Origin: a virus
Taxonomy: Duplodnaviria > Heunggongvirae > Uroviricota > Caudoviricetes
IMG/VR virus record: IMGVR_UViG_2703718787_000017
Length of the DNA stretch: 64,000 nt
Strand: one strand, 5' to 3'
This document shows, piece by piece, positions 15,001 through 27,000 of this stretch (the stretch's first letter is position 1; every line of letters begins with the position of its first letter). A program made the position numbers.

Positions 15001-18000
15001 CGAGATACGGGGTAAGCCGCCCGGATAATCCCGACAGTAATACGCTGGGGTTACGTAATGCCCTGGCAATTGCTGGCGCGAAAAATGGTATCCGTGAAGC
15101 CGAACAGGATCGCCAGATGAACATACTGACGGGGGCTTCTGCACCGGCAAGACAGAAACTGAGTGTTGGCGGACAACTGGTGGCAGCGTAAGGAGGAAAT
15201 ATGGGGTACGGCTTACTGGATATTGCGAATCAGTCACGGCGTGAGGCATTACAGGGAATAAGTGACGCAGACCGACGACGTGAAGAAATTGAGGCTGCGA
15301 ACAAACAGATGGCGGCGCAACAGAAAGCGCAGAACAAGCAGAATATCGGTACGGGCATTGGTACGGGGGCGGCTATTGGCGCATCCGTTGGTGGTCCTGT
15401 TGGTGCTGTTGCTGGAGCAGTAATTGGCGGCATTGCTGGTTCTTTGTTTTAAGGAGTGGTGAATGAGCGGATTTGCACAGGGGTTACTTGCCGGATTCAG
15501 CACGGTTGACCAGGCAATGACCCGTCGTAAGGAGCTTGGTCTGCGTGAAGCACAGCTTGCCCGGCAACAGAAAAATAACGAGCGCGATTTTGAGTTTGCG
15601 CAGTCTCAGTTTGAACATAATAAAAACGTTGATCAGCGGAACTTTGATTACAGAGCCAAAGTTGACGACCGTAATTATGCACTGAAGGAAAGGGAGTTTA
15701 ACGCTAACCAGAATTACCGGAATGCGTCGCTGGGTATGGAGCAGCAGCGACTCCGGATGCAGAAATACAACCAGCGACGGCTTGAGTATAACGATATGCT
15801 GGCGCGCGATCAGCCTGTGATGGCGGCGCTTGGAAAGGCTGTGGATGCTGGCGATCGGGATGCAGCAATGCGTCTTTACGGCCAGTTGTCAGAGGGTAAT
15901 CCGCTGAGGCTGATGGCGAATGATGGCTATGTAGCGAAAGCGGGTCAGGCCGTGAACAACCTGCAAAAAATCTTTGATGACAAGCCAGACAGGGCTATCG
16001 CTTCACTTAATACGCCGGAGAATCTTGATGTCCTTTCCGGGGTGTTTGGCCCGGAACTGCAACAGCGTATTGGCATGCCCGATTCAACCGGGAAAAAGAC
16101 GATAAAAGAGGCCAGGATTGGCAGTATAGTACCGGCACAGCAGGAAGGGTACATACTTATCGGCCTTGATCTCACATACAGTGATGGCTCTACAGCACAT
16201 AAACCTGTAACAGAATACGGCAGTGCGCACCCTGATGATCAAACCGTGCTGGCGATACCCGTTGATAAGGCTATCGCTCAGGTCAGGGATCGCAGCAAAT
16301 TTGCAGAGATATCGAAAAATTATGGTTATTTTATGCCGAAGCAGCAGGGACTTTCTCTGAAAGAGCTTCAGAAGGGGGCCAGCAACGTCGCGGCGGACGC
16401 GATCAAGAATGGCGGTAATGCACAGGCTGCGGTGGATGAATATTATGCTGCGACTGGTTCACAACCGCATCAACAGAAAATTCAGCAACAAAAACTTCAG
16501 CAACAGGTTATCAACTGGGCGGGAGATGATCCTGATAAGCTGTCATTTGCCAGAAATGTAGCGGCCCGTCAGCCTGAAATGCTGGAGCCTCAGAATCAGA
16601 AATTGCTGGAGAACGGGTATGCGAATTTTCTCCGTATTCAAAAGGCCAGGGGGGAACAGGCCAGAGATGAAAGTGCTTCATCTGCATCTCAGTTTATCCG
16701 TGGACTGAAACAGAATTACGCCCAGTAATTCACGATATTCCATTAATACCATTTCCTGATGCCCGGCCATTGTGCCGGGTTTTTTTATGGAGTCTGTATG
16801 GCCTATTCAGAGGAACAGCGTCCTGAGGCGCAACTCGGTAACCAGAATCGTAACAGCCTGAACATTCAGCAACCCGGCGAAACTGACAGCTATGAAGCAT
16901 TTTTCTCTGATCCGAATCGCTGGAAGGATAACAGTACGTCGTTCAGCCTGGGCGATGTATTGCCAACAATGGGTAAAGGTTTCGCCCAGTCCGTCCGGGG
17001 AACAGGGGAAATGGCCCGTGGACTCGGTGATGCGATGATTCAGAGCCCGGTAAAAACAGGGGCGCGTATTTTAAATGAGTTCAGCCGTATGGGGCTGCCG
17101 GGTGTCGCAACTGTGCAGGATATTTTTGCCGGTGGCAGCAGGGGGGCTGATGAGGTCATCGATACCCTGCCTGATGGCAAAAACGCGGTTACTGATACTG
17201 TCGGTAAAGGTCTGAAGGCAACCGGTAAGGCTGTCAGTGATGGTGCTGAAGCCACTGATGAATGGCTGACCGGTAAGATGTCGCCGGGTGCAGTTCGTGC
17301 GCTGAATACGCCGATGACCGAAGGCTATGATGATTCTGCGGTCTGGGTGGCGAAGGGTGTAAACCTGATTGGTGCGCTTGTACCTGATATGGTTGCTGGC
17401 GGTGTGGCTAAAAAGGTGGGTGATGTCACACTGCGAAAAATGCTGACCGCCGGGCTGGAGAAAAAATACATCGCGGCAGGGATGCAGCCGGAAAGAGCCA
17501 CGGCACTGGCAGCAGAAGCTGTCGATAAAAAAATGCCGGATTTATTCCAGGCGGGCCTGATCACCCATTCCACAGCCAGTGCACAGGGGCAGAGTGCAAT
17601 GGCGGCAGCAGATGCTGTTCTTAATGCGGATTACTCTGAGCTGGCGCAGTCACCGAAATTTCAGCAGACGTTTTTGTCCATTGACGCCGACCCGCAGCAC
17701 GCACAGCTTACTGATCGCCAGAAAATGGATCTGGCAAAAGAGCGTGTTGCCGATGAGGTGCGCGCGCAGCTGGCAACCGATCCTGAATTGCTGGCTGTGA
17801 ATGCCATGGCGGCAAAACTGGGTGACGCACAACTGTTTAATCTGGTGACACGAGGCACAGCGAAGACCGTTAAAAGCGGCATTGTCAGAAATGCCACGGA
17901 ACAGGGGGCGATTAATGCGGCGCAGGGCGGCTATTCACGCTATCAGGAAAACACGGCATTGCGTGAGACCGCCGGAATGGATGTGTCACCGTGGGAGGGC

Positions 18001-24000: not shown

Positions 24001-27000
24001 GCGCTGATGAACTCGCTGTACATGTTCGCCAACGCCAGTATTCAGGGAACGGCAAATCTGGTGAGAACGCTCGGACATCTTAATGGTGAGGGACCTTTAC
24101 TGGAGCGCCTTCGCTGGAAGAATCTGAATGTTCCGCAGAAAATCGCGCTTGCCGCTGTGGGAGCGGGTTATCTGCTTGGCTCGCTTAACCGCAGCGTGGC
24201 GGGTGAGGATGATGACGGGGTTAACTGGTATGACAAAGTACCGTCTCATGTGAAAGAGCGTAACCTCGTCATTATGAAATCGGTGTTCGGGGGCAAGGCC
24301 GGAGAGTACTGGAGTATTCCTCTGCCTTACGGGTACAACGTTTTCTTCCTGCTTGGTCACACAGCCGAAGGGGTGGCAGCGGGCGACCTGACCGCTTCAC
24401 GTGCTGCCGGTAATGTTGTTGGTGGTGTGCTTGGGGCATTCAGTCCTGTGGGCAGTGAAACGTCGGAAACACTGTCCGGGGCATTGCTGAAAAATGCAGC
24501 GCCGACCATTCTGCGTCCGTTTGCGAACCTTGCCATGAATGAAAACTTCATGGGGGCGCAGATTTACCAGGAGAACATGCCGTTTGGTACACCAAAACCT
24601 GACAGCCAGCTGGGAAGACGTTCAACGCCAGAAGCGTACAAGGCGTTTGCATCCTGGCTGAATGCGTTCTCAGGTGGCAGCCAGTACCGTCCCGGCGCGG
24701 TGGATATCACACCGGAATCGCTGAAATTCTGGATTGACTATATCTCCGGAGGGACAGGGCGCTTCATTTCCAAAACCACGGATGCGGCGGTGAAATCGCT
24801 GAATGGTATTGATATACCGGAACAGCAGGTGCCCTTCCTGGGGAAAATTTCGGGGGAGGTGATGCCGTATGCAGACCAGCAGAAGATGTACGACCGGATG
24901 ACAGAGATTGCGCAGTATCACGCAGAGCTGAAGAGTCTGACCGGTGCAGAAAGAACGGCGTTCATTGACGAGAACAACGGAAAATTGTCGATGAACGGGC
25001 TTATGCAGGATACCCGGAAGAGACTGAAGGATTTGCGTAAACAGCGTGATGCCATTTATGCCGACAGTTCTCTCAGTCTGGCGCAGCAGGCGGCGATAGT
25101 GAAATCGGTAGAGCGGGATATGAAGGTTGCCGTGGATCGCTTTAACCGCGAGTACAACAAAAAAGTGGGAGTGGATTAACAGAAATGGCCCCGTACGGAA
25201 GTGCGGGGCTGATTAAGGAATAAACACACATTAACCTGTAATAACCGGAGCTATTAACATATAGTCAGAAAGAGTATTTCATGTGAGACAGAGAGCCGAT
25301 TTATGTTTAATGAAGAAAAAGTTGCGCAAATGGCAGCGTATTTGCTGAAAAAGCATGGCGGATCTATGCGTTTCATTAAGCTGATGAAGCTGATGTATCT
25401 CTCTGACCGCAAAGCAATGGAGTCTTTAACCGGGAAGGGGAGAGGTTTGAATGCTCCCCCACAATTCCCCGGCATCAAATCTCCATGCAGGTGAACTATT
25501 TTACCCCCAGCGGCAAATCGCAAAAACAATCAGTGCGATCGAAATGGCAGCCACTACAATTGCAAATGCTTCAGGCTAGGTCATTGGCTTACCTCCTTCG
25601 GCGGTTCTGGTAGCGGCATCCAGTGGGTTACTTCTTTGAGATGCAGGTCTTCGCCATCACCGTCATCCCAAGTGGGATTGCCATCATTAAACCAGTCGCC
25701 ATATACGCCGACCTGAGTGTTGGGGATGCTTGGTGGGTAGTTGTTTTTAAAGTCAGCTGCTAACACATAGTATTGTCGCTCTCCCATTTCTGGCATTCGA
25801 TCACTACAGCTTATCCAACCATCCGGAGTTACCGGAACTGGCGGAACGGCTGTTTGCTCTCGAACGTCATTAGTCGCTATCGGTTCTGCTGCCAACTGAC
25901 TGGCATATTTGTTAATGGTAACGATAAGCTCTTGCTCAGCCTCATCCAGACAATCACCGATACCTCGCCTGTCACCGTCAAAATCATCGAAATCGGCACG
26001 AATCTTGGCAACCTTCTGGATTGCGGACAACACCTCACTAGGAATTACCGGATAGTTGGTTGACGTTTCCGCGATTTCCCGAAAATTATTGGTTGACGAA
26101 TTCTTGTTTTCCCGAAAGTTTCCGGACTGAAGCATGGCGGCGCGGCAGGCATTCCAGCCTCTTACCTCTGCAATAGCGGCAACCGCATCAACCGCGTACA
26201 TGCTAAGAGGATTAGGCATTGGTTTTTCTTCCGGTACTACTGGTGCTGGAGGGGCGGCGTAAATGCCCTCTATCACTAAATGTTTGCGCTCAAAATCATC
26301 TGGCTCTCGATGATATACGTAACTCCAATCACCAAGGTTATCATTGCGCCTGCAACGGAAACCTATCGGCTCGGCTTCCAGCGCTGCCAGAGCAATTCGT
26401 GCCAGTTCTTCCGCTTCTTCTGCTGGCAGTACAACGTTGCTACCAGGTCCGTATGTTTCGCGCCACTGCTTGATTGTCAGTAGTCGCTCTTTGGTAATAG
26501 TGATCATGCCGCGTTTCCTTCTTTCTTATTAACAATTACACCGTCATATATTTCATTAAGGTGCCCTCTCAACTCCATGCGCCTTAATGCAGATAACATG
26601 TAATCGCATTCAACCTGCTTATTCCCAATAAAAGGTTTATCTTCAGGGTTACCCCAACAGCAATTCCCCTTGGGCCATCCATGTACTTTCCGTACTCTTC
26701 CGTTAACAACGTGAAGTAATCCCCAGCCAGGTGGTAAATCCTCAATTGAAATAATTCCCGGCTCACTAATAAAGAATCGCCAGTCGCCCATTCCAAGAGA
26801 CGGATTTTTACGAAAACGCTTTTTTCTATCTGCCAACAAGTCAGCACGAGAACATTTCGCCTCTATCAGGCATGATGCTGAATTTCTGAATCCCATAGCA
26901 TCTGGCTGTTCTCCGGTACTGGTTACAGCTATAAAGCGGTCATGAAAACAAACCTTGAACCCGCTGCGCTTAAGGAACTTGTACGCAATCTGACAGAGTT

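What the first reader, a model, noticed from the sequence alone, without database searches (positions are those of the whole stretch)
16798..25179. 2793-codon giant ORF with zincin HExxH motif at the end of the virion module
Seen: one 8.4-kb reading frame preceded by a terminator and a coupled series of four smaller genes, containing LAHEWFHSLDNYF and many dissimilar segments. Known families: giant polyvalent proteins of phages and conjugative elements combine metallopeptidase and other modules and are delivered with the DNA to counter host defences; 933W-type short-tailed lambdoid phages are, as I recall, notable for a very large late ORF. Inference: an injected multi-effector (anti-defence) protein; if the prophage is of the 933W type, cargo such as toxin genes could lie upstream of this window.
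Basis: partly seen in the sequence, partly recalled or inferred. Interest (0 to 1): 0.6.

Follow-up and report, generated by a model that had tools for sequence, protein, structure and literature searches.

The report
Stx-phage giant polyvalent virion protein
This 8.4-kb gene encodes the already described 2,793-residue virion protein of Shiga-toxin (933W/Sp5-type) phages: a cysteine-free multi-domain protein that is packed in the capsid and needed for infectivity, and whose mechanism is still unproven.

Summary
There is one ORF at 16798-25179 (+), 2,793 codons, preceded by a terminator and four tightly spaced genes, and it contains LAHEWFHSLDNYF. It is 99.9% identical to gp68 of Shigella phage 75/02 Stx and 97.3% identical to the VT2-Sakai/Sp5 gene. 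Published work shows Sp5 ORF80 is essential. Proteomics found its phi24B counterpart gp47 in virions at roughly 11-35 copies, yet cryo-EM does not see it.

Domains, in order:
- an N-terminal domain confined to close relatives;
- a roughly 500-residue low-complexity linker;
- LPD5;
- a CLCA_X-type zincin around HEWFH, which Pfam splits between LPD5 and LPD1;
- a second, unassigned HExxH…E domain;
- a MuF-C/PBECR domain with a RelE-like RNase fold;
- a 913-residue C-terminal module containing LPD38.

That C-terminal module sits at the C-terminus of giant phage proteins (about 1,000-5,500 aa) in about 20,000 clusters, each with different upstream cargo. The family has almost no cysteine. The module's predicted fold has no solved relative.

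Best reading: an encapsidated ejection protein made of a conserved C-terminal chassis plus swappable effector cargo. Injection and anti-defence activity remain untested, and the essentiality argues for a structural role too. Novelty: already known.

The parts
16761..16787 (+). Intrinsic-terminator-like hairpin plus T-run directly upstream of the true start codon
   Evidence: The first in-frame ATG (16759) lies immediately beside it.
16798..25179 (+). Giant ORF, 2,793 codons plus stop (equivalent to Sp5 ORF80 / ECs1242, phi24B gp47, 75/02 Stx gp68)
16798..18117 (+). N-terminal A/G-rich domain (res 1-440), ending in a weak glycine-zipper segment (res 406-433). It is shared with only a subset of relatives.
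   Evidence: (phrog_37568)
18118..19614 (+). Low-complexity E/Q/P/A/R-rich linker (res 441-939). It has no family match and varies between alleles.
19948..20397 (+). Pfam LPD5 (res 1051-1200)
   Evidence: E 1.2e-44
20341..21108 (+). CLCA_X-type zincin domain (res 1182-1437). It holds HEWFH 1284-1288, invariant D1291 and invariant E1375. Pfam LPD1 (res 1361-1440) is its C-terminal part.
21220..21807 (+). Second, unassigned HExxH…E domain (res 1475-1670), with HEIIH 1551-1555 and E1607 invariant. It is often found directly upstream of the C-module in relatives.
   Evidence: No family was found for it.
22045..22308 (+). MuF_C / PBECR predicted RNase domain (res 1750-1837)
22438..25176 (+). Conserved C-terminal module (res 1881-2793), including Pfam LPD38 (res 2476-2681, window 24223-24840). 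This is the inferred encapsidation/ejection chassis.
14086..16728 (+). Four coupled upstream genes (218, 148-150, 83 and 421 aa; equivalent to phi24B gp51, gp50, gp49, gp48). All are cysteine-free. They are virion proteins with no cryo-EM density, and their position upstream of the giant gene is conserved in distant phages.

Best explanation
The ORF encodes the giant internal ("ejection") protein of a 933W/Sp5-type Stx prophage. I read it as having two parts.

(1) A chassis. The C-terminal ~910 residues (1881-2793, including LPD38) form one large, mostly helical fold. This fold is conserved at the extreme C-terminus of thousands of giant phage proteins. I infer that it gets the protein into the capsid and out through the portal and tail into the cell envelope, and that it accounts for the gene being essential.

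(2) A cargo. Everything upstream is lineage-specific and recombining: an N-terminal domain, a long low-complexity linker, LPD5, a CLCA_X-type zincin, a second HExxH…E domain and a RelE-like PBECR RNase domain.

Proposed course of events: some 10-35 copies are packed with the DNA, together with the products of the four upstream genes. On infection they leave through the tail, largely unfolded, which would explain the total lack of cysteine. The chassis and the small proteins with glycine-zipper segments engage the envelope. The cargo reaches the cell, where the zincin(s) cut the polypeptide and/or host proteins and the RNase-like module acts on host RNA.

Shown: the ORF, its domains, their conservation, the cysteine avoidance and the synteny (all here); virion presence, copy number and essentiality (literature). 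Inferred: ejection, the division of labour between chassis and cargo, self-processing, and all targets.
For: Identity with studied proteins:
- 99.9% and 97.3% nucleotide identity to 75/02 Stx gp68 and the VT2-Sakai gene.
- Sp5 ORF80 deletion: excision and DNA packaging are normal, there are no plaques or lysogens, and the defect is complemented in trans.
- phi24B gp47 has the second-highest spectral count in purified virions, is estimated at 11-35 copies, and has no cryo-EM density. Diffuse density in the adaptor lumen disappears after ejection.

Chassis and cargo:
- The 913-aa C-module aligns over 97-99% of its length down to 33% identity, next to different upstream Pfam domains.
- In 50 reconstructed IMG/VR ORFs of 1,022 to more than 4,200 aa, it lies within 0-8 aa of the stop in nearly all.
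- It is the only segment shared by all of them.
- Cargo in relatives includes ART-PolyVal, PBECR5, a ResIII helicase, RadC-JAB, InPase and GNAT.
- A profile search finds 20,261 clusters at E<=1e-3 and 8,253 at E<=1e-30.
- Among Stx-phage alleles the C-module and both HExxH domains stay mostly 95-100% identical. The LPD5 region drops to 58-70% and the PBECR region to 41-51%.

Cysteine avoidance:
- 0 of 2,793 residues here, and 0 in the four upstream genes.
- 37 Cys in 394,176 residues across 132 representative relatives.
- The same holds for N4 gp50/51/52 and is noted for DEV gp71, a giant ejection protein also invisible in cryo-EM, whose conserved C-terminal domain binds the periplasmic tunnel protein.

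Enzymatic cargo is intact:
- H1284, E1285, H1288, D1291 and E1375 are invariant in 29 homologues.
- CLCA_X matches end to end.

Conserved five-gene module.
Against: - Nobody has shown that this protein leaves the capsid or enters the cell.
- The Sp5 deletion phenotype is DNA-filled heads that do not bind tail-fibre antibody. That looks like an assembly defect, not an entry defect.
- The C-module has no strongly hydrophobic helix (no 19-residue window with Kyte-Doolittle hydropathy >=1.4).
- It shows no structural similarity to any solved protein, known ejection proteins included.
- It shows no profile similarity to N4 gp50.
- In phi24B virions gp47 runs mostly in the top gel bands, so any self-processing has not happened before ejection. 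The smear to lower bands could simply be storage damage.
- The second HExxH domain matches no zincin family.
- Anti-defence activity is pure inference from the polyvalent-protein concept.
Confidence: 0.55

Rival explanations
1. It is purely a structural conduit and assembly protein. It builds or extends the trans-envelope channel and is needed for tail attachment. Its metallopeptidase digests peptidoglycan to let the conduit through, as the phi24B authors propose. On this view the other domains are structural, not effectors.
For: - The gene is essential and its deletion gives tail-less heads.
- The phi24B authors propose this reading.
- There is diffuse lumen density that is lost on ejection.
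- The module of small, cysteine-free virion proteins with glycine-zipper segments is conserved.
Against: - The real zincin is CLCA_X-like, with an MtfA/PPEP/lethal-factor-like fold. These are protein-cleaving families, not cell-wall peptidase families.
- In relatives, everything upstream of the C-module is replaced by unrelated enzymes such as an ADP-ribosyltransferase, a helicase, a pyrophosphatase and GNAT. That is hard to square with a structural role for this region.
- Cargo regions are swapped between Stx-phage alleles.
Confidence: 0.25
2. It is a DarB-like antirestriction protein: an accessory injected effector that protects incoming DNA from restriction and has no structural role. This is how database annotations label its relatives.
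For: - phrog_10089, labelled 'DarB-like antirestriction', matches residues 2351-2681.
- Relatives in Bcep22-like and GP4-like phages are annotated as DarB-like and are virion-associated.
Against: - There is no detectable similarity to P1 DarB, DarA, DdrA, DdrB, Hdf or Ulx.
- No methyltransferase or helicase domain is present.
- The shared part is the LPD38 C-module, not the DarB-type enzymes.
- The gene is essential on a permissive host, whereas, from memory, P1 darB is dispensable.
- P1 DarB has 9 cysteines.
Confidence: 0.08
3. It is a tape-measure-like or fibre-like structural repeat protein, or an AAA+ ATPase as an older conserved-domain hit suggested.
For: Mondal et al. 2016 reported a COG1483 (AAA+) hit. 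The protein has long helical stretches.
Against: - No AAA+ or tape-measure family appears in Pfam, NCBIfam or PHROGs.
- The domains are dissimilar and globular, with confident models.
- The phage is a podovirus whose tail is fully modelled without this protein.
Confidence: 0.02

Closest known systems
Sp5 (VT2-Sakai) ORF80 / ECs1242 and phi24B gp47
   Same: This is the same gene, at 97.3% nucleotide identity to VT2-Sakai. It has the same length, the same position and the same four upstream genes. ORF80 is essential, and gp47 is in virions but invisible in cryo-EM.
   Different: Nothing material differs. The allele here is closest to Shigella phage 75/02 Stx (99.9%). Databases disagree on the start codon, giving 2,793, 2,806 or '2,811' aa.
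Polyvalent proteins of phages and conjugative elements (Iyer, Burroughs, Anand, de Souza, Aravind 2017)
   Same: Several unrelated domains sit in one polypeptide encoded among virion genes. It carries LPD5, LPD1, LPD38 and MuF-C/PBECR plus a zincin of the kind proposed to process the polyprotein. [quoted passage not shown]
   Different: There is no N-terminal MuF/portal-type packaging domain. The conserved unit is far larger than Pfam LPD38, about 910 residues against 189. The protein is essential, not accessory.
'DarB-like' giant virion proteins of Bcep22-like, JC1 and Ralstonia GP4-like podophages
   Same: They share the C-terminal module at about 27% identity over about 85% of it. The gene is the last in the virion arm and is preceded by small virion-protein genes. 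The protein is found in virions by mass spectrometry. Portal, capsid and head-closure proteins are homologous to those of 933W.
   Different: Those proteins are 4,500-4,600 aa. One relative is annotated 'soluble lytic transglycosylase/helicase/methylase'. No methyltransferase or helicase domain is found here.
N4 gp50 / DEV gp71 virion RNA polymerase
   Same: Both are giant (3,400-3,500 aa), cysteine-free and encapsidated in a few copies. Both are invisible in cryo-EM and sit in an operon with smaller cysteine-free ejection proteins. In both, a conserved C-terminal domain flanks a functional cargo.
   Different: There is no RNA polymerase domain here. No sequence or profile similarity exists between the C-modules. 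The estimated copy number is higher (about 19 against about 4).
CLCA_X zincins (Lenart et al. 2013), sister group to the self-cleaving CLCA N-terminal metalloprotease
   Same: Residues 1182-1437 match the NCBIfam CLCA_X profile end to end (E 5.9e-44). The HExxHxxD motif is invariant. The family is known to be mostly phage- and plasmid-borne and to occur in very long proteins.
   Different: The score (150 bits) is below the subfamily's curated cut-off (260). No activity or substrate is known for any CLCA_X member.
P1 DarB
   Same: It is a large protein packed in the capsid and thought to be injected.
   Different: There is no sequence similarity. DarB is a methyltransferase-helicase with 9 cysteines and, from memory, is dispensable.

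Membership tests
Polyvalent proteins (Iyer et al. 2017) | Two or more distinct effector or LPD domains in one polypeptide | tested here: met
   LPD5, LPD1, MuF_C and LPD38 all score above the Pfam cut-offs.
Polyvalent proteins (Iyer et al. 2017) | Encoded among virion or DNA-transfer genes | tested here: met
   It is the last gene of the late/virion arm.
Polyvalent proteins (Iyer et al. 2017) | Delivered into the recipient cell with the DNA | not testable with these tools
   Only virion presence is documented, from the phi24B proteomics.
LPD38-terminated giant phage proteins | Full-length ~900-aa module at the extreme C-terminus | tested here: met
LPD38-terminated giant phage proteins | Near-absence of cysteine. 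This feature is proposed here and is not a published criterion. | tested here: met
   0 of 2,793 residues here. The family frequency is 0.009%.
CLCA_X zincin family | End-to-end profile match with a conserved HExxH…D motif | tested here: met
   NF041907 matches at E 5.9e-44 over profile positions 3-245 of 250. H1284, E1285, H1288 and D1291 are invariant.
CLCA_X zincin family | Score above NCBIfam's curated cut-off | tested here: not met
   The score is 150.4 bits against a cut-off of 260. It is a divergent relative, not a subfamily member by NCBI's rule.
Zincin fold | Structural match to solved zincins | tested here: met
PBECR / MuF-C RNase-like domain | Pfam MuF_C match and a RelE/barnase-like fold | tested here: met
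P1 DarB antirestriction family | Homology to DarB (N6-adenine methyltransferase plus helicase) | tested here: not met
   phmmer finds no hit and the best blastp E-value is 1.2. No methyltransferase or helicase appears in Pfam.
N4-type virion RNA polymerase | Single-subunit RNA polymerase core, or homology to gp50 | tested here: not met
   No RNA polymerase family appears. The C-module HMM scores about 0 bits against N4 gp50.
Podophage ejection proteins (functional class, e.g. T7 gp14-16, P22 gp7/16/20) | Present in virions, absent from the ordered structure, and released on DNA ejection | not testable with these tools
   The first two points are reported for phi24B gp47. Release has not been measured. 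No solved structure shares the C-module fold.
Tape-measure / AAA+ ATPase | Family profile match | tested here: not met

The most novel reading that the evidence does not exclude
The ~910-residue C-terminal module is a universal, structurally novel encapsidation-and-translocation chassis. A very large group of phages (about 20,000 protein clusters) uses it to carry interchangeable enzymatic cargo into the host. This would be a phage counterpart of polymorphic-toxin delivery systems. Strict cysteine avoidance would be imposed by passage, unfolded, through the tail channel and the oxidising periplasm. Swapping of cargo alleles among Stx phages (the PBECR and LPD5 regions) would then reflect an ongoing arms race with E. 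coli defences.
Probability: 0.4. Interest if true: 0.6.

Novelty: already known. Interest (0 to 1): 0.3.

Why it matters
Short-tailed Stx phages spread Shiga toxin genes among E. coli and Shigella. This protein takes up 14% of the phage genome, is essential, and is the second most detected virion protein, yet nobody knows what it does.

If the chassis-plus-cargo model holds, two things follow. The C-terminal module would be a general handle for studying how podophages move very large proteins across the Gram-negative envelope, and possibly for engineering that process. The variable cargo would be a catalogue of early-acting host-takeover or anti-defence enzymes.

For the genome scan itself, the result is that the finding is real but already described.

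Tried and rejected
- Whole protein against PDB sequences: nothing below E 0.8.
- Zincin-1 profile against PDB sequences: only a weak lethal-factor hit at E 0.09.
- Second HExxH domain: its profile against PDB gave only designed helical proteins. hhalign against zincin-1 and against P1 DdrB gave probability of about 1% or less. A Pfam scan of 13 members found no family. It stays an unassigned candidate zincin.
- PADLOC: no hit.
- N-terminal domain homologue search: only E. coli and Salmonella relatives, with no domains.
- Genomic context of two short 'solo' C-module proteins (P0144, P0202): the P0202 gene abuts a contig end and the P0144 gene sits among prophage early genes, so neither is informative.
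- Attempt to settle the start codon from phi24B peptides: the N-terminal peptides are not in the stored part of the supplement.
- Rejected ideas: AAA+ ATPase (an old COG hit); tail fibre or tape measure; DarB homology; MuF-C as a 'metallopeptidase', as the phi24B preprint states.
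Full report
**Observation**

The six-frame scan lists one ORF at 16759..25179 (+), 2,806 aa. Its first ATG lies immediately beside a terminator-like hairpin (stem-loop 16761-16780, followed by T7). The next ATG, at 16798, is preceded by GGAG and gives 2,793 codons. LAHEWFHSLDNYF is at residues 1282-1294, and a second HExxH (HEIIH) is at 1551. Four closely spaced genes lie upstream (14086-16728). Downstream the genes switch strand, and the prophage ends near 30100 in ynfG. 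The ORF is found full-length at 90-99.9% nucleotide identity in 186 phage records, all Stx-converting or related phages.

**What is already known about this gene**

The same gene in Sp5/VT2-Sakai (97.3% identical) is ORF80/ECs1242. Its deletion leaves excision and DNA packaging intact but abolishes plaques and lysogenisation, and the defect is complemented in trans. The mutant gives normal-looking heads that do not bind tail-fibre antibody (PMC5155283).

A 2026 preprint on phi24B (10.64898/2026.04.10.717836) detects the orthologue gp47 in purified virions. It notes the LPD5, LPD1, LPD38 and MuF-C domains, finds no density for the protein in intact or ejected particles, and proposes an encapsidated ejection protein. 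The preprint's supplement gives these figures:
- gp47 has 10,962 spectral matches, second only to the capsid protein.
- It peaks in the top gel slice with a tail into lower slices.
- It is estimated at 11-35 copies per virion (average about 19).
- The products of three upstream genes are also present at about 20-36 copies with structural position 'ND': gp48 (421 aa), gp50 and gp51.

RefSeq already names the protein 'LPD5 domain-containing protein'. The LPD domains come from the polyvalent-protein survey of Iyer et al. 2017.

**Domain anatomy**

Pfam gives four domains:
- LPD5, residues 1051-1200
- LPD1, residues 1361-1440
- MuF_C, residues 1750-1837
- LPD38, residues 2476-2681

*The first zincin.* The HEWFH motif falls between LPD5 and LPD1. 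In an alignment of 29 homologues down to 27% identity, H1284, E1285, H1288, D1291 and E1375 are invariant within one conserved block, 1197-1434. NCBIfam's CLCA_X model covers 1182-1437 end to end (E 5.9e-44), although it scores below the subfamily cut-off. So Pfam's LPD5 C-terminal part and LPD1 are two halves of one zincin domain. That domain belongs to the family Lenart et al. 2013 described as mostly phage- and plasmid-borne and as sister to the self-cleaving CLCA protease.

*The second HExxH region (1475-1670).* H1551, E1552, H1555 and E1607 are invariant across 13 sequences of 20-38% identity. The region matches no known family, so I treat it as a candidate zincin only.

*The N-terminal part.* Residues 1-440 and the linker at 441-939 have no family match and only close relatives.

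**The C-terminal module**

Residues 1881-2793 behave as one unit.
- Homologues align over 97-99% of it down to 33% identity, while carrying different upstream domains.
- AlphaFold2 gives a single confident, mostly helical fold (pLDDT 87, pTM 0.85).
- A scan of IMG/VR found at least 584 loci.
- In 50 ORFs reconstructed from those loci (1,022 to more than 4,200 aa), the module ends within 0-8 residues of the stop in nearly all.
- It is the only segment of the Stx protein they all share.
- Cargo in relatives includes ART-PolyVal, PBECR5, a ResIII helicase, RadC-JAB, inorganic pyrophosphatase, GNAT and LPD23.
- A minimal 1,022-aa relative consists of just the second HExxH domain plus the module.
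- A profile search of 1.84 billion representatives finds 20,261 clusters at E<=1e-3 and 8,253 at E<=1e-30. The best 150 are 900-5,535 aa proteins matched at their C-termini. One caveat applies: the profile had about 180 extra upstream positions, so some weak hits may not be to the module itself.
- Named phages carrying it include about 100 Vibrio phages, Ralstonia GP4-like phages and Burkholderia Bcep22-like phages. There the protein is annotated 'DarB-like' and is virion-associated.

**Cysteine avoidance and the five-gene module**

The protein has no cysteine in 2,793 residues. The chance of that at a 1.1% background frequency is about 4e-14. The four upstream gene products have none either. 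Four other Stx-phage alleles have none. Across 132 representative relatives there are 37 cysteines in 394,176 residues, and 111 proteins have none. N4 gp50, gp51 and gp52 are also cysteine-free. The DEV study notes the same for gp71, a 3,398-aa ejection protein. Cryo-EM does not see gp71 either, and its conserved C-terminal domain binds the periplasmic tunnel protein.

Homologues of gp51, gp50 and gp49, and in five of the loci gp48, lie directly upstream of the giant gene in 14 distant loci. gp49 ends in a glycine-zipper membrane segment. gp51 and residues 406-433 of the giant protein have similar Gly-rich segments.

**Allele comparison**

Among Stx phages, both HExxH domains and the C-module are mostly 95-100% identical. 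Residues 801-1200 fall to 58-70% in one allele. Residues 1701-1900 (the PBECR domain) fall to 41-51% in another. This looks like module replacement in the cargo over a fixed chassis.

**Interpretation**

The best-supported model is an encapsidated ejection protein with a conserved C-terminal chassis and exchangeable enzymatic cargo. The design is analogous to N4/DEV vRNAP, but the two are not homologous.

The steps that are shown are the anatomy, the conservation, the cysteine avoidance, the synteny (all here), and virion presence and essentiality (literature). The steps that are inferred are ejection, assignment of the essential function to the C-module, self-processing by the zincin(s), and any host target.

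Four things count against the model:
- The tail-less phenotype of the deletion points to assembly, not entry.
- There are no clear transmembrane helices.
- There is no similarity to any solved ejection protein.
- gp47 is mostly full-length in virions.

Of the rivals, the purely structural reading is weakened by the replaceable enzymatic cargo. The DarB-like reading fails a direct homology test.

**Verdict**

The gene is already described genetically, proteomically and in domain databases, so the novelty is 'already known'.

- the size and fixed C-terminal position of the conserved module;
- family-wide cysteine avoidance;
- recognition that LPD5-C and LPD1 form one CLCA_X zincin;
- conservation of the five-gene module.

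Noticed in passing
window 14086-25179; relatives P0254-P0385: Cysteine is almost absent. There is none in the giant ORF, in the four upstream genes, or in the 422-aa ORF at 10153-11421 (annotated tail fibre protein). Across 132 representative relatives the frequency is 0.009%. N4 gp50/51/52 share the trait.
   Followed up: yes
window 15201-15452: This 83-aa ORF ends in a glycine-zipper membrane segment and gives weak NCBIfam hits to PdsO and alpha-xenorhabdolysin subunit A. It is conserved upstream of giant genes in distant phages. The phi24B preprint nevertheless dismisses it as a bacteriocin-like contaminant.
   Followed up: partly
window 20341-21108: Pfam splits one CLCA_X-type zincin domain into the C-terminal part of LPD5 and LPD1. 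The catalytic HExxH lies in the unannotated gap between them.
   Followed up: yes
window 19198-20397 and 21898-22497 (res 801-1200 and 1701-1900): These regions are mosaic between Stx-phage alleles (41-70% identity) while the rest of the protein is mostly 95-100% identical. This suggests replacement of cargo modules by recombination.
   Followed up: partly
window 16759 vs 16798: Public records disagree on the start codon, giving 2,793, 2,806 or '2,811' aa. The upstream ATG lies immediately beside the terminator stem.
   Followed up: partly
window ~30100-50000: The prophage's right end is in ynfG, and ynfF is at 30198-32624 (-). A second island carrying an integrase interrupts the neighbouring DMSO-reductase-like gene. 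Another prophage (integrase, excisionase, exonuclease) begins near 47000.
   Followed up: partly
window 12428-13991: Moron-like genes sit between the tail genes and the ejection-protein cluster: Lom (12428-13162), a MokW/hok-like killer (~13394-13534) and a 133-aa ORF. Each is flanked by terminator-like hairpins.
   Followed up: no
L044 (IMG/VR 2585427913_000002), 9620-12706: This is a minimal 1,022-aa relative made only of the second HExxH domain plus the C-terminal module. It is a natural candidate for the smallest functional unit.
   Followed up: no
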